Positions 1 to 28,247 of a stretch of DNA of 49,043 bases are shown here, piece by piece. Source of the DNA: Escherichia phage PGN590; sequence record NC_049830.1. One strand, written 5' to 3'. Positions within the stretch are counted from its first letter, which is position 1, and the number at the start of each line of letters is the position of its first letter. The position numbers were made by a program, and so were the translations under genes. A model generated the notes under the pieces. The model was not told where the DNA came from. It worked only from the letters and a program-made list of their open reading frames with translations, and did not search any database.

Positions 1-122
1 ATGCCCTTCATAACTTCATCAACATACTTCCCGCGCTTTTCAACATCCGCCTTCATTGCCTCGCCGCACTTCTTAGCCTGGCGTTTTGCAGCGTTGAATT
101 GTGCCTCGTTCATTCCAAACAT
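1..122 (-). CDS. hypothetical protein, partial (N-terminus only; runs off window start)
   Basis: ATG at 120-122 overlapping TAA of upstream ORF (TAATG); open frame to position 1; MFGMNEAQFNAAKRQAKK... Confidence 0.3.
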   Translation of the reverse strand, partial: MFGMNEAQFNAAKRQAKKCGEAMKADVEKRGKYVDEVMKG

Positions 123-250
123 TACAGACCTCTACCCTTCCACAAGTTGTACATTTCGAAATAGTGCATTGCTGTTTCAGTATCGCCGCTATCTAATGCC
201 TCCTCCTGCTTCTGTGCGCACCATTGCGACGGTTTTATGTAGTTATCCAT
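122..250 (-). CDS. small hypothetical protein (42 aa), not in ORF track
   Basis: ATG 248-250, TAA 122-124; below 60-aa cutoff; sits in minus-strand gene array. Confidence 0.25.
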   Translation of the reverse strand: MDNYIKPSQWCAQKQEEALDSGDTETAMHYFEMYNLWKGRGL

Positions 251-320
251 TGAATCACCTTACCTTAAAAATGCCTCGTCAAAATGCGTCCTGTTCGCTG
301 TATGAGGCATTCAATTTTAA

Positions 321-635
321 TTAAAAATCGTCGAGCAACTCACGAAAGTTGTTAAGAGTTGCAACTTTGGCACAATCCCACTCCGTCGATCCTGCTTCTT
401 CCCACGGAGAACCAGGCCCGTGGTTTGTCATATCATCAATCAAGCAAGAGATCTCATCAATGACAACATCTTTTAAATGCTCGCGGTGCTCAATATCTTC
501 CACAGGCTCAAAAGCCTGAATTACACCACCCAAAACGCGTTGCTGTGCTTTAGCATCGTCGAGCGTGTCACAAATTGCTCTGCGCTCCTGCTTGTTTTCG
601 TTTGTCCCGATCTGGTAGTAGTGAATGAAAATCAT
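321..635 (-). CDS. hypothetical protein
   Basis: ORF track; ATG 633-635 overlaps stop of upstream gene (ATGA). Confidence 0.5.
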   Translation of the reverse strand: MIFIHYYQIGTNENKQERRAICDTLDDAKAQQRVLGGVIQAFEPVEDIEHREHLKDVVIDEISCLIDDMTNHGPGSPWEEAGSTEWDCAKVATLNNFRELLDDF

Positions 636-940
636 TTATATTTCTCCGCTACATGCTTTGCAACTGATTGTGCGTAATTGGCAAATGCCGACTCCACTCT
701 TTCATTCTTTCTCTTCCAGTTGTGAACCTTTAAAGCCGTGTATCCATTCTCAGCAAGCCATTTTGCAGTTTCTGCCGCGTCAGTTGGACGCGGTGAGAAT
801 TTTTGCTCAAGCTGAGTAAAAAGCTCTCTTGCAACCTCATGATCAATAATCATTTCATCAGTTGATCCGCAAAGTGCGCGAGAACCTACAGCACGCAGGA
901 GTTTCTTTGCTTGTTCTTCTGAAAGGTTAATCGTGATCAT
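632..940 (-). CDS. hypothetical protein
   Basis: ORF track, start moved to ATG 938-940 (MITINLSEEQ) overlapping upstream stop (ATGA). Confidence 0.5.
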   Translation of the reverse strand: MITINLSEEQAKKLLRAVGSRALCGSTDEMIIDHEVARELFTQLEQKFSPRPTDAAETAKWLAENGYTALKVHNWKRKNERVESAFANYAQSVAKHVAEKYK

Positions 941-1149
941 TCTTCTACTACCTCGCATTCGTCATGGTTTACGCCGATGTTATCACCGATTCGAATTTCT
1001 TCCGTGTTGCGGATTGCCAACACGCAGTAAGAACCATCGCGAAAGAATCCGTCAACATCCACAATGTCACCAACTTTAAACCCGCATTGCTCAAGGGTAA
1101 TGCTTCCGTCGTTGCGGTCAATGTCAACCCTGGTGATTCGAATTTTCAT
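937..1149 (-). CDS. hypothetical protein
   Basis: ATG 1147-1149 preceded by GAGGA RBS; downstream of repeat copy at 1207. Confidence 0.5.
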   Translation of the reverse strand: MKIRITRVDIDRNDGSITLEQCGFKVGDIVDVDGFFRDGSYCVLAIRNTEEIRIGDNIGVNHDECEVVEE

Positions 1150-1206
1150 TTTGATTTCCTCTGTTTCGCTTCAATGAGGACACTTTAACAAATGCCCTCG
1201 CGGAAG

Positions 1207-1226
1207 TTTTAACAAAAAGTGCTATT
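1207..1226 (-). promoter_or_regulatory. intergenic 20-bp repeat, promoter-like
   Basis: sense AATAGCACTTTTTGTTAAAA; overlaps TAA of 1225-1512; TAAAGT about 22 nt downstream. Confidence 0.55.
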
Positions 1227-1512
1227 AGCTCATATAATAAATTTCATCGCGCACAAAATCGTCAAAATCAGATTGCGTTAATGGTCGATCCTCTAATGCT
1301 GCCTGTTCAATCATTTCCACCAGGGCGCAATCCATAGCAAGGTAATGCGCATCAAGATCATACCATGAAGCCATTTGACGCGCCCAGGAGCGGCAATTCT
1401 TGAATCCGTAGCGTCGGATACAGTTTGCCGTGTGAAATGAGTCATTCCAACCACGCTCAAGCGCTGCCTTTTCGAATGCGTTAATCAACATTTTACGATT
1501 GCTTTTAGCCAT
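1225..1512 (-). CDS. hypothetical protein
   Basis: ATG 1510-1512 with GGAGG RBS; stop overlaps repeat motif. Confidence 0.55.
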   Translation of the reverse strand: MAKSNRKMLINAFEKAALERGWNDSFHTANCIRRYGFKNCRSWARQMASWYDLDAHYLAMDCALVEMIEQAALEDRPLTQSDFDDFVRDEIYYMS

Positions 1513-1555
1513 TTGATTCCTCCTTTTAGCGCCACCGAAGCGGCGCGATTAAACA

Positions 1556-1732
1556 TTATTTCTTTCCGGTCAGAATGTAGCGCTTGCCATTTTTAAATCC
1601 ATCGCCGTAGCCGTAATATGCGCCAGCCAGGAAGATAATCATTCCCCCGAATGACTCAACAATGCCGCTATACCCATAAGCCAAATGGGAACCAACGATA
1701 AGGGCAATAAAGGTGATAATTGCTCTTTTCAT
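1556..1732 (-). CDS. small membrane protein (2 predicted TM helices)
   Basis: ATG 1730-1732 overlaps upstream stop (ATGA); hydrophobic IITFIALIVG and GMIIFLAGAYYGY. Confidence 0.45.
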   Translation of the reverse strand: MKRAIITFIALIVGSHLAYGYSGIVESFGGMIIFLAGAYYGYGDGFKNGKRYILTGKK

Positions 1733-1992
1733 TCGTGATCCCATACGTCGCATTTTTTGACAACCAGCAAACGCAGCTTGTAAGGTCGGAACTTGTGCAA
1801 CTTTTTAGCGTATTCTCGCGCCTCACTGTAACTATTGAACTCCATAGCCCAAAAGCCTAAAGCATCATCCGTCAGATATTCCCAATCCCCACTAATAACG
1901 CGGCGGCGTTGCAGACAATAAATCTTGCATTCTGTGCAAGCAACGATCCGGTATTCAGGTTTGAAGATTCGTTTTAGTGCATTAAAAACCAT
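1729..1992 (-). CDS. hypothetical protein (CxxC pair)
   Basis: ATG 1990-1992 with GAGGG RBS; VACTECKIYC. Confidence 0.45.
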   Translation of the reverse strand: MVFNALKRIFKPEYRIVACTECKIYCLQRRRVISGDWEYLTDDALGFWAMEFNSYSEAREYAKKLHKFRPYKLRLLVVKKCDVWDHE

Positions 1993-2091
1993 AGTGCCGC
2001 CCTCACTGAATAAACAACTAAGAGAATAAAGAATAACACAATCATGATTTCATGAAAATTAAATGGAGGCTTTGGATTGGTTGCGTTGTTG

Positions 2092-2496
2092 TTATTTCCC
2101 AGCATTTCGCGCAATCCCTTTGTACATTCTGTAAAAATTACTGCCAGGATTTTTGAACTTGATCGCGTTTCGAGCAAGTCGGCGCATCCGTCGCGCATCG
2201 TATCGCGCTCGCTGAAATGGCATTTTCATTGTCTTAATATGGCAGCCGCGATGATCGCTGATTCGCTTAAGCTCAATCAAAACGCCTTGAGTTGCCACTA
2301 CGTAATAATGTTCAAATCCCAAACGGCGAGTTATGATATAGCCATTCTTGATGCGTGGTCGGTTAAACTCTTTGGTCGATCCGATATAGCGATCTGAAGC
2401 CGTTACAATCTCGCCTTTACGAATACCGCATATCTCACCACATACCCAGGTTACAACAAATTTTGTGCCTACGCGGATTTTTTGAAGTTCTAACAT
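2092..2496 (-). CDS. hypothetical protein, basic C-terminus (possible nucleic-acid binding)
   Basis: start set to ATG 2494-2496 (MLELQKIR) after GAGAGGG RBS; track start lies inside promoter-like TATAAT. Confidence 0.45.
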   Translation of the reverse strand: MLELQKIRVGTKFVVTWVCGEICGIRKGEIVTASDRYIGSTKEFNRPRIKNGYIITRRLGFEHYYVVATQGVLIELKRISDHRGCHIKTMKMPFQRARYDARRMRRLARNAIKFKNPGSNFYRMYKGIARNAGK

Positions 2497-2545
2497 GTTC
2501 AAGCCCTCTCGTTTATTGGTGTTTGCATTATAGCGAGGCATTGCG

Positions 2546-2570
2546 CCCCGCTTTTAGCAATTCGTGCTAT
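2546..2570 (-). promoter_or_regulatory. divergent repeat copy (AATAGCACGAATTGCTAAAAG), promoter-like
   Basis: overlaps TAG of kinase gene; GC hairpin then TATAAT (plus-strand 2526-2531). Confidence 0.45.
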
Positions 2571-3157
2571 TTGATCTTAACGTGTTTCCACTGGACAGTT
2601 TTGATGATCTCGTCAACTGTCTTTTCTGGATCGCCATCAGTCATTGTGAAGTCGTAATGTTTTATGCGGTGATGGTATCCGCTCAGGTCAATATAGTTTC
2701 GTGAATCGCCATCAAACGTGAAACCTTCGCGGTGCAGTCTGCAAATGTGAACTTCATGGCCTGCCTTAACGAGCGGCTTGATTTCTTCAGGAAATCCGCC
2801 ATCACTAATTACAACAGCCAAATCCCTGCACATCTCGTGTACTTGCTCAACCATGCGATTTCCGAAATATTGCTCGCCAAAAGCTGGCTTCATAATTTCT
2901 TCGCTAATCCAGATCATGAACTGGCGAGGCGACTTGCCTTGCAAGATTGCTTGAGGCTTTTCTTTCTGCTCGCGGTCGTTATACAGATCAATAAACTCGT
3001 CATATCGGTAAACGCCAAGCATGGAGAATGCAATATCAAACATAGGCTGTTTAAACGACGCTTTAACGGCTGCGTAACGATGACCTGTTAAGTATGCCGC
3101 AAGCGTATCCTTGCCAACTCCTGGCGGTCCGTTAAGGATTATAATGTCTCGCTTCAT
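2567..3157 (-). CDS. P-loop nucleotide/polynucleotide kinase-like protein
   Basis: Walker A LNGPPGVGKDT near N-terminus; GGAG RBS before ATG 3155-3157. Confidence 0.6.
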   Translation of the reverse strand: MKRDIIILNGPPGVGKDTLAAYLTGHRYAAVKASFKQPMFDIAFSMLGVYRYDEFIDLYNDREQKEKPQAILQGKSPRQFMIWISEEIMKPAFGEQYFGNRMVEQVHEMCRDLAVVISDGGFPEEIKPLVKAGHEVHICRLHREGFTFDGDSRNYIDLSGYHHRIKHYDFTMTDGDPEKTVDEIIKTVQWKHVKIK

Positions 3158-6774: not shown

Positions 6775-7030
6775 TAATATCTGTTGTGACTTGTTGGTGC
6801 ATTACGTTTTTGCCGCTGTTGTATGTGCTATCCGTTGCGCCATTACAATTGGTGTAATAGATTGCTCGACCGTTGTCATAGAATCGGTACGCAGTGCATC
6901 CATCCACAGTAAACAGGCGACCGACTTTAAAATCTGACTCCACTCCTACGACAACCGTTGATTCCGATGCCTTCTCGCATCCGGTCAGGGTAGCAATTGC
7001 AATCAAAACTCCAATTAATGCCTTACTCAT
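6770..7030 (-). CDS. lipoprotein
   Basis: signal peptide plus lipobox LIAIATLTGC; four further Cys in mature part. Confidence 0.55.
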   Translation of the reverse strand: MSKALIGVLIAIATLTGCEKASESTVVVGVESDFKVGRLFTVDGCTAYRFYDNGRAIYYTNCNGATDSTYNSGKNVMHQQVTTDIK

Positions 7031-7508
7031 CCTCTTTCCCTCCAGCGAGTTTACGAATCATGTCCTGGTAGCGCCCTATAGCCTCACACGCTCCAGCAAG
7101 TTTGTCGCCTTCCATGTCTGTGATATTTGGCATTACGTTTACCAGGTGATTAAGAATTTTGCTTACCGCCTTCTCTGCGCGCTTTTCTGCGATCTCGTCG
7201 ATTTCTTCACCAGTCAAAACGCGAGGCTTGCTTTTGGCTTCGGTGAGCGTAAACACAAAGCCATCACCCTCATCAGTCACCTTTCGCTTAATGCTGATCA
7301 CTCCTTTTTGCTTTACTTCTGGCACACGGTTGACAACCTGGCGCATGTACGATGCCGTAATTGCTTCGCCGTTCTCCACATTAGCGCACAAAAAAAGTGC
7401 TGGCATGAATACATTATTACGCTCACCACTACCAATTGCCGCGCCCAAGTCGCGAAGCATATCGCAAAACTCACTACGCGACATGGTGATAATATTTTCT
7501 TCGCTCAT
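7023..7508 (-). CDS. hypothetical protein
   Basis: ORF track; first gene transcribed leftwards from control region. Confidence 0.5.
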   Translation of the reverse strand: MSEENIITMSRSEFCDMLRDLGAAIGSGERNNVFMPALFLCANVENGEAITASYMRQVVNRVPEVKQKGVISIKRKVTDEGDGFVFTLTEAKSKPRVLTGEEIDEIAEKRAEKAVSKILNHLVNVMPNITDMEGDKLAGACEAIGRYQDMIRKLAGGKEDE

Positions 7509-7829
7509 AGCATCTACTCCTTTTGTTGCGTTTAAACTGGATGCATTATTGCCTTGCCTCTCCTACATGTCAATATATTTTGTGTTTTAACAACAATTTT
7601 TGGCATGTGGCGCGTTTAAAGATAACAAAATGCTTCAGTTAAGTCATTGGTTTTTATGTTAAAAATGACCCTGTTGACTTGGTTGACGGAGGATTGCTTC
7701 ATACCCATATATATACATACAAAAATCACCACGCATCATCATTGATTAAAAAATATACAATCACACATACATATCACCACAAACAATACCAATCCACCAC
7801 ATACCCATAGAACAAGCACAACAGTAAAT

Positions 7830-7870
7830 AACAAATATAAATACATATATAACTAACTTATTGATTTTAT
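7830..7870. repeat. conserved block shared by both strand-switch control regions (copy 1)
   Basis: AACAAATATAAATACATATATAACTAACTTATTGATTTTAT; about 33/40 identical to 28024-28063; flanked by CA-rich tracts. Confidence 0.6.
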
Positions 7871-7922
7871 GGGTATATATATAAATTTTATTTTGTTCTT
7901 TTTGTTGATGAACGCCAATTCT

Positions 7923-7957
7923 GTTATCTCAAAGTGCGGAGGCTTATTTGAGATAAC
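7923..7957. repeat. perfect 11-bp inverted repeat with 13-nt loop
   Basis: GTTATCTCAAA ... TTTGAGATAAC in non-coding control region. Confidence 0.6.
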
Positions 7958-8107
7958 GCGGGGAACAGAAATAACAGTTGTGCGCGCCAGGATTGCAGGA
8001 AAGGATGCAAGAGGGCCACATTTCTCTATCCCCTCCACACAAAAAGTTAATCACTTGATTAAAATTGATCAAACTCAAAGTCTCACAATCCAGGTGATCG
8101 CGAATGA

Positions 8108-8150
8108 TTTATTCCTGTTATTCCTGATTAATGGAATAGATGGAATAATG
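8108..8150. promoter_or_regulatory. dyad-symmetric operator-like element
   Basis: TTATTCCTG TTATTCCTG attaat GGAATAGAT GGAATAATG; two direct 9-mers mirrored around ATTAAT, 12 bp upstream of promoter-like repeat. Confidence 0.5.
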
Positions 8151-8161
8151 ACCAGTCAGCA

Positions 8162-8180
8162 AATAGCACTTTTTGTTAAA
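8162..8180 (+). promoter_or_regulatory. intergenic repeat, promoter-like (first rightward promoter)
   Basis: TACATT 22 nt after TTGTTA; drives 8244 gene; dyad element just upstream. Confidence 0.55.
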
Positions 8181-8243
8181 CCTGAATTGCCATGATCGGG
8201 TACATTAGACACATCGAAACGAGATACCCATCAGGAGATAGCA

Positions 8244-8516
8244 ATGAACATCAGCAAAACCACTTTCAACTTTGCAAAGCGTCACGGTCTGGATCTGACT
8301 GTTGAAGATTTTGGCGATGTTCTGCAACTATGCATTTGGGAAGCGGATAACGATTGCGAGTGGCTTTGCTCTTATCGCATCAATTACCATTGCTTAACCT
8401 GGCACGGCAATATCTATCTGCCGCAAGAAGTGAAAGAGGAATTGCCAGCGACCATCAATAATGAAGTGTTTTTGCGCAAAGTCCTGAAGTTTATTGCTGA
8501 GGAGATCAAGAAATGA
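8244..8516 (+). CDS. hypothetical protein
   Basis: AGGAGA RBS; first rightward gene after promoter-like repeat at 8162. Confidence 0.5.
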   Translation: MNISKTTFNFAKRHGLDLTVEDFGDVLQLCIWEADNDCEWLCSYRINYHCLTWHGNIYLPQEVKEELPATINNEVFLRKVLKFIAEEIKK

Positions 8517-8758
8517 TTGATGAAGTGGATTTTGAACTTGCAGAGGCCCAGGTAAGGGCCAAAAAGATGGGATTGCGGATCCTGAAGAAAACAGTCGAGT
8601 TCCCGTCGATGCCGTTCGCATCGTTTCATAAAGTGACGGTATTCAGTAGAAAACGCGAGTGTAATGCGCTAATCCCTGTTGGTGATGATAAGCGCATGGC
8701 TAAATTCATTAACGAGTCCTGTGATGTTCTGATGGCCGTTAAACACGATCAACAATGA
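8513..8758 (+). CDS. hypothetical protein
   Basis: ATG overlaps upstream stop (ATGA). Confidence 0.5.
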   Translation: MIDEVDFELAEAQVRAKKMGLRILKKTVEFPSMPFASFHKVTVFSRKRECNALIPVGDDKRMAKFINESCDVLMAVKHDQQ

Positions 8759-8771
8759 AGGGGAAATAAAG

Positions 8772-9038
8772 ATGGCACGAATCAATGCACCTATTCCAGT
8801 AAAACGCAAAGCACGACTGCTTAACAATGGATGTTACGCCATGCGGCCTGCATTTAAGGATCGCACCTTTCCGGTTATCGTCAACGTGTTGTACGTAAGC
8901 CGTAGCGGGAATCTGGCCTTTGTTAGCGGTGAAGATCTGGCGGCGATTGGATTCTATGGCGGTATTTACAGCGAACCGCTCGGATTCTGGATTGTAAATC
9001 CGTCAACTGGAGAACGCGAAATCGAACTCCTGGACTAA
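8772..9038 (+). CDS. hypothetical protein
   Basis: GAAGGGGAAA RBS; stop overlaps repeat motif. Confidence 0.5.
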   Translation: MARINAPIPVKRKARLLNNGCYAMRPAFKDRTFPVIVNVLYVSRSGNLAFVSGEDLAAIGFYGGIYSEPLGFWIVNPSTGEREIELLD

Positions 9039-9056
9039 TAGCACTTTTTGTTAAAA
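9037..9056 (+). promoter_or_regulatory. intergenic 20-bp repeat, promoter-like
   Basis: overlaps TAA of 8772-9038; TACATT 22 nt downstream; conserved leader. Confidence 0.55.
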
Positions 9057-9114
9057 CTCAATCCTCGTGTTCCTGTACATTACACACATCAACAACGAAT
9101 GCGAGGATTTGAAA

Positions 9115-9267
9115 ATGGTTACTCTGATTACCTGGGAACACGAAAACAGCCAGCCGGAAGCGCGCGAGTTTGAAACTGTAGCGGCATGTTATAACCTTGC
9201 GAAAAATGGTGGCTTCTATAAGGCGCAAATCGTTAACGAATTTGGAGTTGTTGACTATGAGTTCTAA
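9115..9267 (+). CDS. small hypothetical protein (50 aa)
   Basis: start set to ATG 9115 after conserved leader and GAGGA RBS. Confidence 0.45.
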   Translation: MVTLITWEHENSQPEAREFETVAACYNLAKNGGFYKAQIVNEFGVVDYEF

Positions 9268-9547
9268 ATTTTACAGCTACACCGATACCGTGGATTTTGA
9301 GGGGATACAATTGCCCCTCCCTAATATATACCGCTATATCACGCGTGACGAACGCGGATATATTGAAGCGTGGCGCTCATATCCAGTGCGGGATCTTGAA
9401 TTTGGCGGCTTCCGCTCTCTTGAGGGTGAGTTGCCGATCTGCTTCGGTCATCAAAGCGGTGAAAATCTTCCGGTTGTTGCGCGGCAGTATCGCAGACACA
9501 AGATCACAAGAGCACTTATCTCTTTAACTGGATCTGTTGTTGAATAG
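9257..9547 (+). CDS. hypothetical protein
   Basis: ATG 9257 overlapping upstream gene end; stop TAG inside repeat motif. Confidence 0.45.
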   Translation: MSSKFYSYTDTVDFEGIQLPLPNIYRYITRDERGYIEAWRSYPVRDLEFGGFRSLEGELPICFGHQSGENLPVVARQYRRHKITRALISLTGSVVE

Positions 9548-9562: not shown

Positions 9563-9618
9563 ACGGTATGCGCCTGAATGGTATATTACATCCATCAACA
9601 ACGAACGAGGATTTAAAA

Positions 9619-9813
9619 ATGGAAAATCAAGTTGATGTTAAAGTTTTACAGCGTGACACCACTCACGAGAAAGGAATCTTTAAGAAAGGCGCTATCATCA
9701 CAATTGATATTGAGGATATGGTTGCGTACCACTCAGGGCTAACTTGGAACGTTGTTAAACATGGCAATGCTTTCAAACTGCGTGGATTCAATACTATTAT
9801 GGAGGTTGTGTAA
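9619..9813 (+). CDS. small hypothetical protein
   Basis: ATG 9619 after conserved leader CATCAACAACGAACGAGGATTTAAAA. Confidence 0.45.
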   Translation: MENQVDVKVLQRDTTHEKGIFKKGAIITIDIEDMVAYHSGLTWNVVKHGNAFKLRGFNTIMEVV

Positions 9814-10887: not shown

Positions 10888-11598
10888 ATGCATAAAGGTT
10901 TGATTTTCTCTTTGTTTGATGGATCTGGTAAAGCCGTTAAAGATTGGGCTGACGCTGGATATAAATGCATTTGCTTTAATTACGATGATGCTGATCACGG
11001 TGATTACCACTCAGTGCGCATAATCCACGACAATATTTTTTACGTTAATGTGTGGATTGATGAGCTATTCAAATATACCGCAAAACTTGAAAATTGGGGT
11101 AAGCCTGATTTTATTATGGCGTTCCCTCCATGCACTGACCTTGCAAATAGCGGATCTCGCCATTGGGCTAAAAAACGCATTGAGAATCCATCGTTCCAGG
11201 ATGAAGCCGCCGACACTTGCAAAATAGCGGCGCAAATTGCTGATTATTTCGGTGTTCCGTACATGATAGAGAATCCTGTAGGCAAGCTGTCAACGCTATG
11301 GCGCAAGCCTGATTATACGTTCCATCCGTGCGATTATGCTGGCTATCTGCCGGAAGATGATAAACATCCCGACTTTCCTGATATTATTCCGGCGCGGGAT
11401 AGGTACTTTAAGAAAACATGCCTTTGGACTGGAAACGGATTTGTTATTCCTCCTCGCGCAACAATCCTTCCTAAAGAGGGCGACAAGGATAATCCTGGTT
11501 GGGCCAAAACTGGCGGAAAATCATCTCGCACAAAGATGATCCGCTCCCTCACACCGCGCGGTTTTGCTCGCGCAGTATTTGAAGCAAACGCAAAATAG
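10888..11598 (+). CDS. DNA (cytosine-5) methyltransferase-like protein, compact
   Basis: motif I-like LFDGSGKA, PC motif AFPPCTDLANSGS, ENV-like MIENPVG; no obvious target-recognition domain. Confidence 0.5.
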   Translation: MHKGLIFSLFDGSGKAVKDWADAGYKCICFNYDDADHGDYHSVRIIHDNIFYVNVWIDELFKYTAKLENWGKPDFIMAFPPCTDLANSGSRHWAKKRIENPSFQDEAADTCKIAAQIADYFGVPYMIENPVGKLSTLWRKPDYTFHPCDYAGYLPEDDKHPDFPDIIPARDRYFKKTCLWTGNGFVIPPRATILPKEGDKDNPGWAKTGGKSSRTKMIRSLTPRGFARAVFEANAK

Positions 11599-11613
11599 CA
11601 CTTTTTGTTAAAA
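11594..11613 (+). promoter_or_regulatory. intergenic 20-bp repeat, promoter-like
   Basis: overlaps TAG of methyltransferase-like gene; CATAAT at 11633-11638. Confidence 0.55.
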
Positions 11614-11669
11614 GCTAGGTGTAAAAGCCTGGCATAATCACTTCACCGAAACGAAAGGAGAAATAAACG

Positions 11670-12056
11670 ATGAAAGTTATCTGCAATAAAACCAACGTTT
11701 TGATGAACGGTCGTTATAAAGCTGTATACGAAAAAATTGCTGGTAGCGATGATGTGATCGAGTTGGAACAATTCCAGGTAAAGAGCATTACAAAGGGTAG
11801 CAAGTGGCAAAATGCTGTTGAGTCTGACTATCGTAATATCAAGACAAAAACAATTAAATGCACATTTGTAGATCACAAGATCCCGTGCAAAAAGCATTTC
11901 AAAGAAGGAAAGCGCTACCAGATTGAGCAAGGCCGCGCTCTTGGCGCTGTTGCTGGTTATGTGTTTGATGAAGCTGGCGACCGCTGGACGCTATACCGCG
12001 AAGAAGTTGGGTTTTCCGCTGGTGGCTGTCATTTATTTGAGGCTATGTATAAGTGA
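11670..12056 (+). CDS. hypothetical protein
   Basis: AAAGGAG RBS; promoter-like repeat upstream. Confidence 0.5.
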   Translation: MKVICNKTNVLMNGRYKAVYEKIAGSDDVIELEQFQVKSITKGSKWQNAVESDYRNIKTKTIKCTFVDHKIPCKKHFKEGKRYQIEQGRALGAVAGYVFDEAGDRWTLYREEVGFSAGGCHLFEAMYK

Positions 12057-20952: not shown

Positions 20953-21426
20953 ATGAAAGAAAAGCGGATCGCGGTATCAACTGGCAAAATTGACAAACGC
21001 ACAATCAATGGCAATAACGGAACTCGACGTGGTAAAGATAAGAAAAAGCGCAAGCGCCCTACAGGATACTATGTTTTAAAAGATGAAGTGCGCGCAGGAC
21101 TAAAAGCACGGCTTGACATTCTTATTGAGTATTACGGAAGCGTGTCAGCAATGGCAAAGCGTCTTAACGTTAGCCAGCAAACTGTAAATCAGTGGCGTGT
21201 TCGAGGTATGATTTCAGCCGCTGGCGCTCAAAAGGTGCATAACGATTACAAGAAATATGGTTGTCAAGGCTATCGCGCTTCATTCTGCCGTCCAGATCTA
21301 CGATTTGATTCCAATGGCAAACCGCTCACAAAGAGATGTGATAAGCGTGAAATGTTGCGAGTAGTAAGAATGTCAGATTATGAACCTGGCGGATTCCTGT
21401 ATAAACCTGAAAGCACTAATTGCTAA
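20953..21426 (+). CDS. HTH DNA-binding protein (putative regulator)
   Basis: basic N-terminus, HTH-like SVSAMAKRLNVSQQTVNQW. Confidence 0.45.
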   Translation: MKEKRIAVSTGKIDKRTINGNNGTRRGKDKKKRKRPTGYYVLKDEVRAGLKARLDILIEYYGSVSAMAKRLNVSQQTVNQWRVRGMISAAGAQKVHNDYKKYGCQGYRASFCRPDLRFDSNGKPLTKRCDKREMLRVVRMSDYEPGGFLYKPESTNC

Positions 21427-27748: not shown

Positions 27749-28023
27749 GATTTGCCCTCATTGGTTGGTATGTCTGCATTGTAGCTATTTGATGCGTTTA
27801 GTCAATAGTTATTTTGTTTTTTCTGTTCTAACAACGTTCTCACCAACTTTGGTAACAAAACTTACATGTAAGAGATTGATAAATATCAGTGTTGTCTTTT
27901 TGTTCTCTTGTTCATCCATTTGCGCCGGATATAGATATATAGACACACAAACACTAACACATACACAACCAAATAAAAATTACCAGACACACAAAATCAC
28001 ACAAAACATAGATAACAAGAAAA

Positions 28024-28063
28024 AACAAATATAAATATATACACTACTAACTCATTGATTTAT
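28024..28063. repeat. conserved block shared by both strand-switch control regions (copy 2)
   Basis: AACAAATATAAATATATACACTACTAACTCATTGATTTAT; flanked by CA-rich and TATATA tracts. Confidence 0.6.
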
Positions 28064-28172
28064 ATATATGTATATATACTTATCTGTATGTATAGCGCTC
28101 TATTACTGTTCACTTTTTGAGCTAAATTTAAGCCTCCGCAGATTTGAGAACGAAGGAAAACAAAAAGAACAG

Positions 28173-28191
28173 AATAGCACTTTTTGCTAAA
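28173..28191 (+). promoter_or_regulatory. intergenic repeat (variant TTGCTAAA), promoter-like
   Basis: in control region 2; TATAGT at 28211-28216; drives lipoprotein gene. Confidence 0.5.
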
Positions 28192-28247
28192 CGCACGCCG
28201 CAAGATCGTGTATAGTTGCAACTAACAATAACTAAGGAGAAAACAAG

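What the first reader, a model, noticed from the sequence alone, without database searches (positions are those of the whole stretch)
7923..8150. Operator-like dyad and a perfect 11-bp inverted repeat upstream of the first rightward promoter
8108-8150 contains two direct TTATTCCTG repeats mirrored by GGAATAGAT and GGAATAATG around a central ATTAAT, a four-half-site arrangement typical of a dimeric or tetrameric DNA-binding protein. 7923-7957 is a perfect 11-bp inverted repeat (GTTATCTCAAA / TTTGAGATAAC) with a 13-nt loop. Both lie in non-coding DNA immediately upstream of the repeat copy at 8162, so they are well placed to regulate the early rightward operon or to act as origin-associated structure.
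Basis: seen in the sequence. Interest (0 to 1): 0.5.

Follow-up and report, generated by a model that had tools for sequence, protein, structure and literature searches.

The report
Conserved heptamer operator upstream of T1-like promoter
The four-half-site dyad is a real, evolutionarily protected protein-binding array sitting just upstream of the first promoter next to the packaging start of a T1-like coliphage, and the same array turns up in unrelated coliphages, which points to an unidentified host protein; the nearby 11-bp hairpin is only a lineage-specific feature.

Summary
The window is a complete T1-like phage genome (Drexlerviridae, Hanrivervirus). Both features exist as described, in the 735-bp divergent non-coding region 7509-8243.

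The dyad (8109-8148) is four TTATTCC/GGAATA(A/G) heptamers in a 7-2-7-8-7-2-7 layout. It is unique in the genome, against 0.017 tandem pairs expected by chance. The heptamers are kept while spacers and flanks diverge, in Hanrivervirus, three to four other Tempevirinae lineages and phage T1 itself. The array always ends 14-15 nt before the first promoter repeat. Its distance to the likely pac end varies from 73 to 93 nt. It is absent from sister genera (Warwickvirus, TLS). No phage gene co-varies with it. The same array occurs in the unrelated phage phiEap-2.

Best reading: an upstream operator for an unidentified, probably host-encoded, protein that acts on the first rightward promoter.

The 11-bp inverted repeat (7923-7957) is significant here, but it decays or changes within the genus. 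Only its loop motif and right arm are conserved.

In passing: the known 21-nt T1-like promoter repeat fits the E. coli class II marbox consensus.

The parts
8109..8148 (.). Heptamer array: TTATTCC (8109-8115), TTATTCC (8118-8124), GGAATAG (8133-8139), GGAATAA (8142-8148). Layout 7-2-7-8-7-2-7. Predicted position -104 to -65 from the inferred transcription start.
   Evidence: unique in the genome, 0.017 expected. (phylogenetic footprint).
8160..8166 (+). Degenerate fifth heptamer (CAAATAG) overlapping the 5' end of the promoter repeat. It is a perfect GGAATAG, 12-13 nt after the last GGAATAA, in T1, L011, BabyEgg, L058, L071 and L075.
   Evidence: None of about 36 other promoter repeats in the window or T1 is preceded by GG.
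8163..8181 (+). Promoter-associated repeat ATAGCACTTTTTGTTAAAC, one copy of the 21-nt T1-like repeat family. It matches the marbox consensus with no mismatch.
   Evidence: Literature: PMC11447400, PMC3709825, PMC12052159.
8201..8206 (+). -10-like hexamer TACATT, 19 nt after the repeat. The inferred transcription start is near 8213 (not measured).
   Evidence: every repeat copy is followed at the same distance by a TATAAT-like hexamer.
8244..8516 (+). First gene of the rightward operon (90 aa, phrog_6147, function unknown).
8056..8128 (+). Tract of five TGAT motifs at 8056, 8066, 8095, 8105 and 8125, in 10-bp helical phase. It includes TGATCA and TGATCG (GATC sites). AATCA/TGATT-rich tracts occupy the same place in all T1-like lineages.
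   Evidence: 0 of 2000 shuffles reach the count or the phasing..
8018..8039 (.). C-rich motif TCTCTATCCCCTCCACAC. Record ends of five independent T1-like genomes fall within about 10 bp of it (window equivalents 8027-8036). This is the probable first packaging cut (inferred).
   Evidence: T1 and TLS record junctions lie in the same region. PMC7718038.
7923..7957 (.). Perfect 11-bp inverted repeat (arms 7923-7933 and 7947-7957) with a 13-nt loop.
7935..7946 (+). Loop motif TGCGGAGGCTTA. It is conserved across Tempevirinae lineages and has a second exact copy at 28129-28140 on the minus strand.
   Evidence: 3 matches with at most 1 mismatch against 0.21 expected.
7952..7977 (+). Three phased (A/G)(T/G)AAC(A/G) repeats: ATAACG, GGAACAG, ATAACAG, at a 9-10-bp period. 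The right arm of the inverted repeat is the first of them.
   Evidence: Read by eye from the sequences shown. The same pattern is seen in 2019SD1, L011, TLS, BabyEgg, aaroes and the paralogous region 28143-28172.
28129..28140 (-). Paralogous copy of the loop motif, in the second divergent control region (27749-28247).
   Evidence: (D7).

Best explanation
The dyad is an upstream operator. It is a single-copy array of four heptamer recognition sites (five in other lineages), consensus GGAATA(A/G), for a sequence-specific oligomeric DNA-binding protein.

The array is anchored to the first rightward promoter. That promoter consists of a marbox-like repeat at 8163-8181 and a -10 hexamer at 8201-8206. 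The array covers about -104 to -65. In most lineages it reaches a further heptamer that overlaps the 5' edge of the promoter's activator element.

Occupancy would therefore modulate this one promoter, the pac-proximal entry point of the rightward operon. It could do so by competing or cooperating with whatever binds the repeat, or by contacting RNA polymerase. The direction of the effect is unknown.

No phage gene travels with the array, and the same array is found in unrelated coliphages. The binder is therefore most likely a host (enterobacterial) protein that I could not identify.

Shown: the existence, uniqueness, footprint, geometry, anchoring to the promoter element and cross-family occurrence of the array.
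Inferred: protein binding, the promoter and its start site, the host origin of the factor, and the regulatory outcome.

The 11-bp inverted repeat is a separate, lineage-restricted inverted duplication. It is built on a conserved motif block (TGCGGAGG plus phased GAAC-type repeats) that also occurs in the second divergent control region. Its perfect symmetry is not required.
For: (1) Uniqueness and non-randomness.

(2) Footprint within the genus: 2 of 28 heptamer columns vary against 12 of 38 spacer or flank columns in 11 distinct Hanrivervirus sequences (Fisher p = 0.03).

(3) Footprint between lineages: BabyEgg keeps all four heptamers and the 7-2-7-8-7-2-7 geometry with unrelated spacers and flanks. 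T1 and about 9 Tunavirus contigs, plus L011, L058, L071 and L075, keep TTATTCC-2-nTATTCC-8/9-GGAATAA-12/13-GGAATAG, although blastn finds no similarity in this region beyond the promoter repeat.

(4) Anchoring: the distance from the last GGAATAA to the promoter repeat is 14-15 nt in all lineages. The distance to the C-rich motif (the record-end cluster) is 73, 83, 89 and 93 nt.

(5) The fifth heptamer GGAATAG overlaps the promoter repeat only at this promoter.

(6) No co-varying phage gene was found.

(7) Enterobacter phage phiEap-2 (Guernseyvirinae) has two such arrays flanking a leftward gene. Ten of its 18 exact heptamers lie in 1.2 kb. It shares only HNH endonucleases and a tail-completion protein with T1-likes. 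Similar arrays occur in an rV5-like contig and an ST32-like contig.
Against: - No binding protein was identified.
- No comparable array occurs in Enterobacteriaceae representative genomes or in E. coli genomes by blastn. That is unusual for a host transcription factor.
- The array is dispensable. Warwickvirus and TLS have the same promoter and first gene but carry other repeats at this position.
- The transcription start is only predicted.
- The array lies inside the roughly 185-bp stretch that distinguishes this region from its paralogue, and that stretch also carries pac-associated features. A packaging role is therefore not excluded.
- A promoter next to the phiEap-2 arrays is not established.
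Confidence: 0.5

Rival explanations
1. The array is an accessory or recognition element of the pac site. The small terminase, or a bending protein recruited to the packaging complex, binds the heptamers to position the first cut about 75-115 bp away.
For: The array is a single copy per genome. It lies in the intergenic region where T1 and T1-like pac is placed (PMC7718038). Five independent record ends cluster at window 8027-8036. It sits at the end of a 10-bp-phased TGAT/AATCA tract shared by all lineages. It lies within the 185 bp that are extra relative to the paralogous region.
Against: The distance to the end cluster varies (73-93 nt) while the distance to the promoter is fixed. The array is absent from Warwickvirus, whose TerS is closer to the window's (73%) than T1's is (54%). 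No win=T1-specific residues were found in TerS. The phiEap-2 arrays lie among head genes, 5.5 kb from its terminase genes. There is no meaningful similarity to P22 pac.
Confidence: 0.15
2. The array is the operator of a phage-encoded regulator, for example the Pir homologue (20953-21426) or a small early protein.
For: T1 Orf23 (Pir) is an experimentally shown regulator of T1 promoters (PMC6737242). The window has a 59%-identical homologue with a Cro/YdaS-like HTH.
Against: The Pir HTH region is nearly identical in atuna, which lacks the array. The T1 promoters regulated by Pir (hol, dam, pir, recE) carry no heptamer pairs. No ORF is shared by array-positive genomes and missing from array-negative ones, apart from membrane proteins and a 50-aa ORF that also occurs in array-negative contigs. 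phiEap-2 has the arrays but no shared regulator.
Confidence: 0.1
3. The element works as a nucleic-acid structure, either a hairpin or cruciform in single-stranded DNA or RNA, rather than as a duplex protein site.
For: Both strands of 8100-8156 fold into a two-step hairpin (-6.9 and -7.1 kcal/mol, z about -3.2 to -3.6). T1 has an upstream promoter repeat reading through the array.
Against: The heptamer sequence itself is conserved across lineages, with no compensatory changes. T1, L011 and others have only three heptamers next to each other, so the double stem cannot form. There is no Rfam match.
Confidence: 0.07
4. The array is a set of replication-origin iterons beside the AT-rich/CA-rich block 7700-7900.
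For: Repeated sites lie near an AT-rich, strand-asymmetric block in a divergent promoter region. No origin is known for T1-like phages (PMC11447400, PMC7718038).
Against: The array is absent from sister genera with the same replication proteins. The AT-rich block exists twice in the genome but the array only once. The phiEap-2 arrays lie in the structural gene region.
Confidence: 0.05

Closest known systems
Upstream operator / activator-site arrays made of tandem and inverted short half-sites (for example NarL heptamer sites, or omega-repressor heptad arrays of pSM19035). Recalled from general knowledge, not tested.
   Same: Short 7-bp recognition units occur in both direct and inverted orientation with fixed spacing, placed upstream of a promoter. 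The units are conserved and the spacers are free.
   Different: The unit sequence (TTATTCC) and the 9-bp direct period match neither NarL (TACYYMT, inverted 7-2-7) nor omega (contiguous WATCACW). The binder is unknown. The array is single-copy per genome and portable between unrelated phages.
Class II marbox promoters of the E. coli mar/sox/rob regulon
   Same: The promoter element that the array abuts fits gcannwwntgnnaaa and AYnGCACnnWnnRYYAAAY. It is in forward orientation, centred about -41, and replaces a -35 hexamer (PMC12052159, PMC3709825).
   Different: This concerns the neighbouring repeat, not the dyad. Binding of Rob, MarA or SoxS is untested. T1 Pir activates at least one such promoter, Pdam (PMC6737242).
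pac sites with phased short repeats flanking the cut (SPP1 pacL/pacR; P1 pac with TGATC(A/G) hexamers). From memory.
   Same: The surrounding region has 10-bp-phased TGAT/AATCA motifs, two TGATC(A/G) hexamers and a cluster of genome-record ends.
   Different: The heptamer array itself is not universal among phages with the same TerS family, and it is not at a fixed distance from the presumed cut.

Membership tests
Transcription-factor operator / upstream regulatory array | Repeated recognition units with fixed geometry, more than chance would give | tested here: met
   Layout 7-2-7-8-7-2-7. Two tandem pairs observed against 0.017 expected.
Transcription-factor operator / upstream regulatory array | Units conserved while spacers and flanks diverge in relatives | tested here: met
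Transcription-factor operator / upstream regulatory array | Fixed position relative to a promoter | tested here: met
   14-15 nt to the promoter repeat in all lineages. The promoter itself is predicted, not mapped.
Transcription-factor operator / upstream regulatory array | A cognate DNA-binding protein | tested here: inconclusive
   No co-varying phage gene. No host protein identified. No host-genome copies.
Transcription-factor operator / upstream regulatory array | Demonstrated binding and an effect on transcription | not testable with these tools
   Needs EMSA or footprinting and reporter assays.
Headful packaging (pac) recognition site | Single copy, located at the physical first-cut end | tested here: inconclusive
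   Single copy. It lies 73-113 bp from the cluster of record ends, which are themselves indirect evidence.
Headful packaging (pac) recognition site | Present wherever the cognate small terminase is present, and co-varies with it | tested here: not met
   Absent in atuna and TLS although TerS is conserved. Window TerS is closer to atuna's than to T1's.
Replication-origin iterons | Universal in phages sharing the replication module and adjacent to an unwinding element | tested here: not met
Intrinsic terminator (for the inverted repeat 7923-7957) | G+C-rich stem followed by a T-run | tested here: not met
   Not called by the scan. The stem is A+T-rich and is followed by GCGGGG on the plus strand and AGAATT on the minus strand.
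Conserved structural hairpin (for the inverted repeat 7923-7957) | Pairing maintained in relatives | tested here: inconclusive
   Kept with different arms in EC147 / 2019SD1 and partly compensated in BEK12B. Reduced to 6 bp in Henu8. Absent in aaroes and in other genera.
Class II marbox promoter (for the neighbouring repeat 8163-8181) | Match to the consensus, forward orientation, centre between -36 and -55 | tested here: met
   20 sites with at most 1 mismatch against 1.3 expected. A -10 hexamer follows 19 nt downstream (PMC12052159).
Class II marbox promoter (for the neighbouring repeat 8163-8181) | Dependence on MarA, SoxS or Rob | not testable with these tools
   Needs binding and genetic tests. 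Pir is a rival activator (PMC6737242).

The most novel reading that the evidence does not exclude
The TTATTCC heptamer array is a portable recognition module for an enterobacterial DNA-binding protein whose site has not been described. Unrelated virulent coliphage groups (Drexlerviridae, a Guernseyvirinae phage, rV5-like and ST32-like contigs) would have recruited it independently to control individual promoters. In T1-like phages it would gate the pac-proximal promoter, which is itself a class II marbox promoter. Early T1 transcription would then be wired to two host regulators.
Probability: 0.3. Interest if true: 0.65.

Novelty: new member of a known kind. Interest (0 to 1): 0.45.

Why it matters
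T1-like phages are very common laboratory and environmental coliphages, yet their transcription programme, pac site and origin are essentially unmapped. The TLS re-annotation (PMC11447400) lists how these phages shut off host syntheses and the function of the 21-nt repeat among its open questions.

This work gives a precisely defined, evolutionarily protected cis-element next to the packaging start and the first promoter. That is a concrete probe for pulling down the responsible protein.

If the binder is a host factor shared by several phage families, it identifies a new phage-host regulatory dependency. The side observation that the 21-nt repeat is a consensus class II marbox makes that open question directly testable, for example by growing T1 on rob/marA/soxS mutants.

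Tried and rejected
- Similarity of the dyad's left edge to the P22 pac sequence (the TerS is of the P22 gp3 family). The best genome-wide matches to the 12-mer and 22-mer lie elsewhere in all four genomes. Rejected.

- Co-variation with the first leftward gene (DUF7174), which is replaced together with part of the intergenic region. L007 combines a window-type DUF7174 with the Warwickvirus-type array. Rejected. Its AlphaFold model (pLDDT 76) has no significant PDB fold match.

- Presence/absence screen of all window ORFs in T1 (array present) against atuna and TLS (array absent). The only hits were membrane proteins and a 50-aa ORF. That ORF also occurs in array-negative contigs.

- T1 Orf65, a reported regulator, has no homologue in the window.

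- Column-pattern screen (window = T1, different from atuna and TLS) over 39 orthologues. No convincing cluster appeared in TerS, Pir or any other protein.

- Host-genome search for the array: none in Enterobacteriaceae, and no blastn match in E. coli genomes.

- Rfam: no match.

- A viral-contig scan with TTTTGTTCTTTTTGTT was too unspecific and gave nothing useful.

- Known E. coli sites compared from memory only, none fitting: DnaA box, ARG box, IHF, Fis, NarL heptamer, RcsAB box, IclR box, Lrp, OxyR.

- The ORF 7869-8195 annotated in phage herni, which would make both features coding, is rejected. It has no family hits and single-base indels in 2019SD1 shift its frame.

Full report
**Context**

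The window is a whole T1-like phage genome. It is 95% identical to Escherichia phage herni (Drexlerviridae, Tempevirinae, Hanrivervirus) over 7000-9500. The finding lies in the 735-bp non-coding region 7509-8243, which separates two divergent sets of small genes. The leftward set runs from 7508 to position 1 and continues to the terminase genes at the other end of the window. The rightward set starts at 8244.

In phage T1 the record junction lies in the homologous divergent region. That junction is the pac-defined left end, annotated repeat_region 1..2800. The literature places pac of T1-like phages in this untranslated region (PMC7718038). The pac of phage TLS was mapped by restriction digests, and its record junction falls in the equivalent region (PMC11447400).

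**The observation**

Both features are exactly as described.

The dyad is TTATTCC-TG-TTATTCC-TGATTAAT-GGAATAG-AT-GGAATAA (8109-8148). Tandem pairs with at most one mismatch occur only here in the genome, once on each strand, against 0.017 expected.

The inverted repeat at 7923-7957 has perfect 11-bp arms and a 13-nt loop. No equal arm appeared in 200 shuffles, and the single-strand fold has z = -4.2.

**Conservation of the dyad**

Within Hanrivervirus, 11 distinct sequences were compared. Two of 28 heptamer columns vary, each in one sequence. Twelve of 38 spacer or flank columns vary (Fisher p = 0.03).

The comparisons between lineages are much stronger. In these, blastn sees no similarity left of the promoter repeat.
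- Phage BabyEgg keeps four heptamers in the same 7-2-7-8-7-2-7 layout, with unrelated spacers and flanks.
- Phage T1, Shfl1 and about eight further Tunavirus contigs have TTATTCC-2-ATATTCC-9-GGAATAA-12-GGAATAG.
- Four other lineages (L011, L058, L071, L075) have the same arrangement.

In all of these the last GGAATAG is the 5' end of the promoter repeat (GGAATAGCAC). None of the other repeat copies listed in the window or in T1 is preceded by GG.

The array is unique in the T1 genome as well. It is absent from TLS and from the Warwickvirus atuna.
- Warwickvirus carries 10-bp-phased TGATTAC repeats at this position.
- TLS carries two tandem AGACCAATCGGTCT palindromes there.

**What the array is attached to**

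The distance from the last GGAATAA to the promoter repeat is 14-15 nt in every lineage, although the intervening bases differ. The distance to the conserved C-rich motif on the other side is 73, 83, 89 and 93 nt. The array is therefore anchored to the promoter.

That promoter consists of the known 21-nt T1-like repeat followed 19 nt later by a TATAAT-like hexamer. The function of the repeat is stated as unknown in PMC11447400. With an inferred start near 8213, the array spans about -104 to -65 and the repeat is centred near -41.

**Who binds?**

I looked for a phage protein that travels with the array and found none.
- The hypervariable first leftward gene (DUF7174) recombines independently of the array.
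- ORFs shared by T1 and the window but missing in atuna and TLS are membrane proteins and a 50-aa ORF. That ORF is also present in array-negative contigs.
- TerS and the Pir homologue show no window = T1-specific residues.
- The Pir HTH is nearly the same in atuna.
- The T1 promoters that Pir regulates (PMC6737242) lack the heptamers.

The same array also occurs outside the family.
- Enterobacter phage phiEap-2 (Guernseyvirinae) has two clusters flanking a leftward gene among its head genes. Ten of its 18 exact heptamers lie in 1.2 kb, with two tandem pairs. It shares only HNH endonucleases and a tail-completion protein with T1-likes.
- An rV5-like contig and an ST32-like contig carry similar arrays.

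A cis-element that moves between unrelated coliphages without a linked gene is most simply read by a host protein. I could not name it. There is no such array in enterobacterial genomes, and this counts against the idea.

**Packaging context**

The region between the two features carries three elements.
- A C-rich motif at 8018-8039, shared with T1 and Warwickvirus.
- A tract of five TGAT motifs in strict 10-bp phase (0 of 2000 shuffles).
- AATCA/TGATT-rich equivalents of that tract in every lineage.

The record ends of G29-2, haarsle, XY3, an IMG/VR isolate contig and Shfl1 fall within about 10 bp of the C-rich motif. The T1 and TLS junctions lie in the AATCA tract.

The second divergent region, 27749-28247, is colinear with this one up to about 7978. 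It lacks the next 185 bp or so, which hold the C-rich motif, the TGAT tract and the dyad.

So the dyad sits in a pac-associated insert. However, its variable distance to the ends, its absence from phages with a closely related TerS, and its occurrence among phiEap-2 head genes argue against it being the pac recognition element. The shared AATCA tract is the better TerS candidate (inference).

**The inverted repeat**

- The full repeat is present in the window, herni and A16a.
- One arm position is lost in L002 and in L008.
- Only GTTATC/GATAAC is left in Henu8.
- BEK12B has 5+4 bp with compensating changes.
- EC147 and 2019SD1 have different arms (TGTTATGCG/CGCATAACA) and a different loop.
- aaroes and other genera have no repeat.

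What is conserved is the loop motif TGCGGAGG and the right arm. The right arm is the first of three phased GAAC-type repeats. Both recur in the second divergent region, with the loop motif inverted there. There is no T-run, so it is not a terminator. I regard the perfect symmetry as a lineage-specific duplication around a conserved but unexplained motif block.

**Verdict**

The dyad is a real functional element, most likely an upstream operator of the first rightward promoter read by an unidentified and probably host-encoded protein (confidence 0.5). A packaging role is the main rival (0.15).

It is a new example of a familiar kind of element. It is of moderate interest, raised somewhat by the cross-family occurrence.

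Noticed in passing
window 8163-8181 and 19 further sites (e.g. 1207, 5087, 6292, 6755, 9038, 9544, 11595, 17377, 18397, 28174, 38874): The 21-nt T1-like promoter repeat (function unknown per PMC11447400) fits the E. coli marbox consensus AYnGCACnnWnnRYYAAAY / gcannwwntgnnaaa. There are 20 sites with at most 1 mismatch against 1.3 expected. [quoted passage not shown] This suggests activation by host Rob, MarA or SoxS, or by a mimic. T1 Pir activates Pdam, which carries the repeat. No paper in the library links marbox and T1-like phages.
   Followed up: partly
window 27749-28247 compared with 7509-8243: A second divergent control region is a paralogue of the first. It has the same CA-rich, strand-asymmetric block (7757-7867 and 27951-28061, 70% identical), ATATA palindromes, the TGCGGAGGCTTA motif (inverted) and phased GAAC repeats. 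It lacks the roughly 185 bp that hold the C-rich motif, the TGAT tract and the dyad. The function of the shared blocks is unknown.
   Followed up: partly
window 8018-8128: The C-rich motif TCTCTATCCCCTCCACAC coincides with the record ends of five independent T1-like genomes. It is followed by five TGAT motifs in 10-bp phase, including TGATCA and TGATCG (GATC sites, reminiscent of the P1 pac hexamers, from memory). This is probably the real pac region.
   Followed up: partly
window 7934-7942 and 8031-8039: GTGCGGAGG in the loop of the inverted repeat is the reverse complement of CCTCCACAC in the C-rich motif, except at one position. That position varies among relatives (A, G or C) without compensation. 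Its significance is unknown.
   Followed up: no
window 7869-8195 (+): A 108-aa ORF, annotated as a CDS in phage herni, spans both features. It has no Pfam or PHROG match, and single-base deletions in 2019SD1 shift its frame. It is almost certainly not a gene.
   Followed up: yes
window 7023-7508 (-): The first leftward gene (DUF7174, 161 aa) is only 25% identical to its atuna counterpart, while neighbouring genes are 93-97% identical. It is a mosaic cassette that recombines independently of the right half of the intergenic region. The AlphaFold model shows an N-terminal helix-strand domain and long C-terminal helices, with no significant PDB fold match.
   Followed up: partly
L103 (phage TLS) about 49800-49840; L003/L104 (Warwickvirus) upstream of the first promoter: At the position of the dyad, TLS has TAGACCAATCGGTCTAGACCAATCGGTCTA. 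This is four AGACC/GGTCT units, and AGACC is the EcoP1I type III site (from memory). Warwickvirus has four to six TGATTAC direct repeats at a 10-bp period. Each lineage carries its own repeat set there.
   Followed up: no
L327 (Enterobacter phage phiEap-2) 11500-12700: Ten of the 18 exact TTATTCC/GGAATAA heptamers of this unrelated 40-kb phage cluster around a leftward gene (11567-11779) among head genes. They include the palindrome GGAATAAATTATTCC and two 7-2-7 tandems.
   Followed up: partly
window 9568-9813 (+): This small early protein matches Pfam PF25180, 'Phage antiviral trigger protein Gp54' (E = 4e-36).
   Followed up: no
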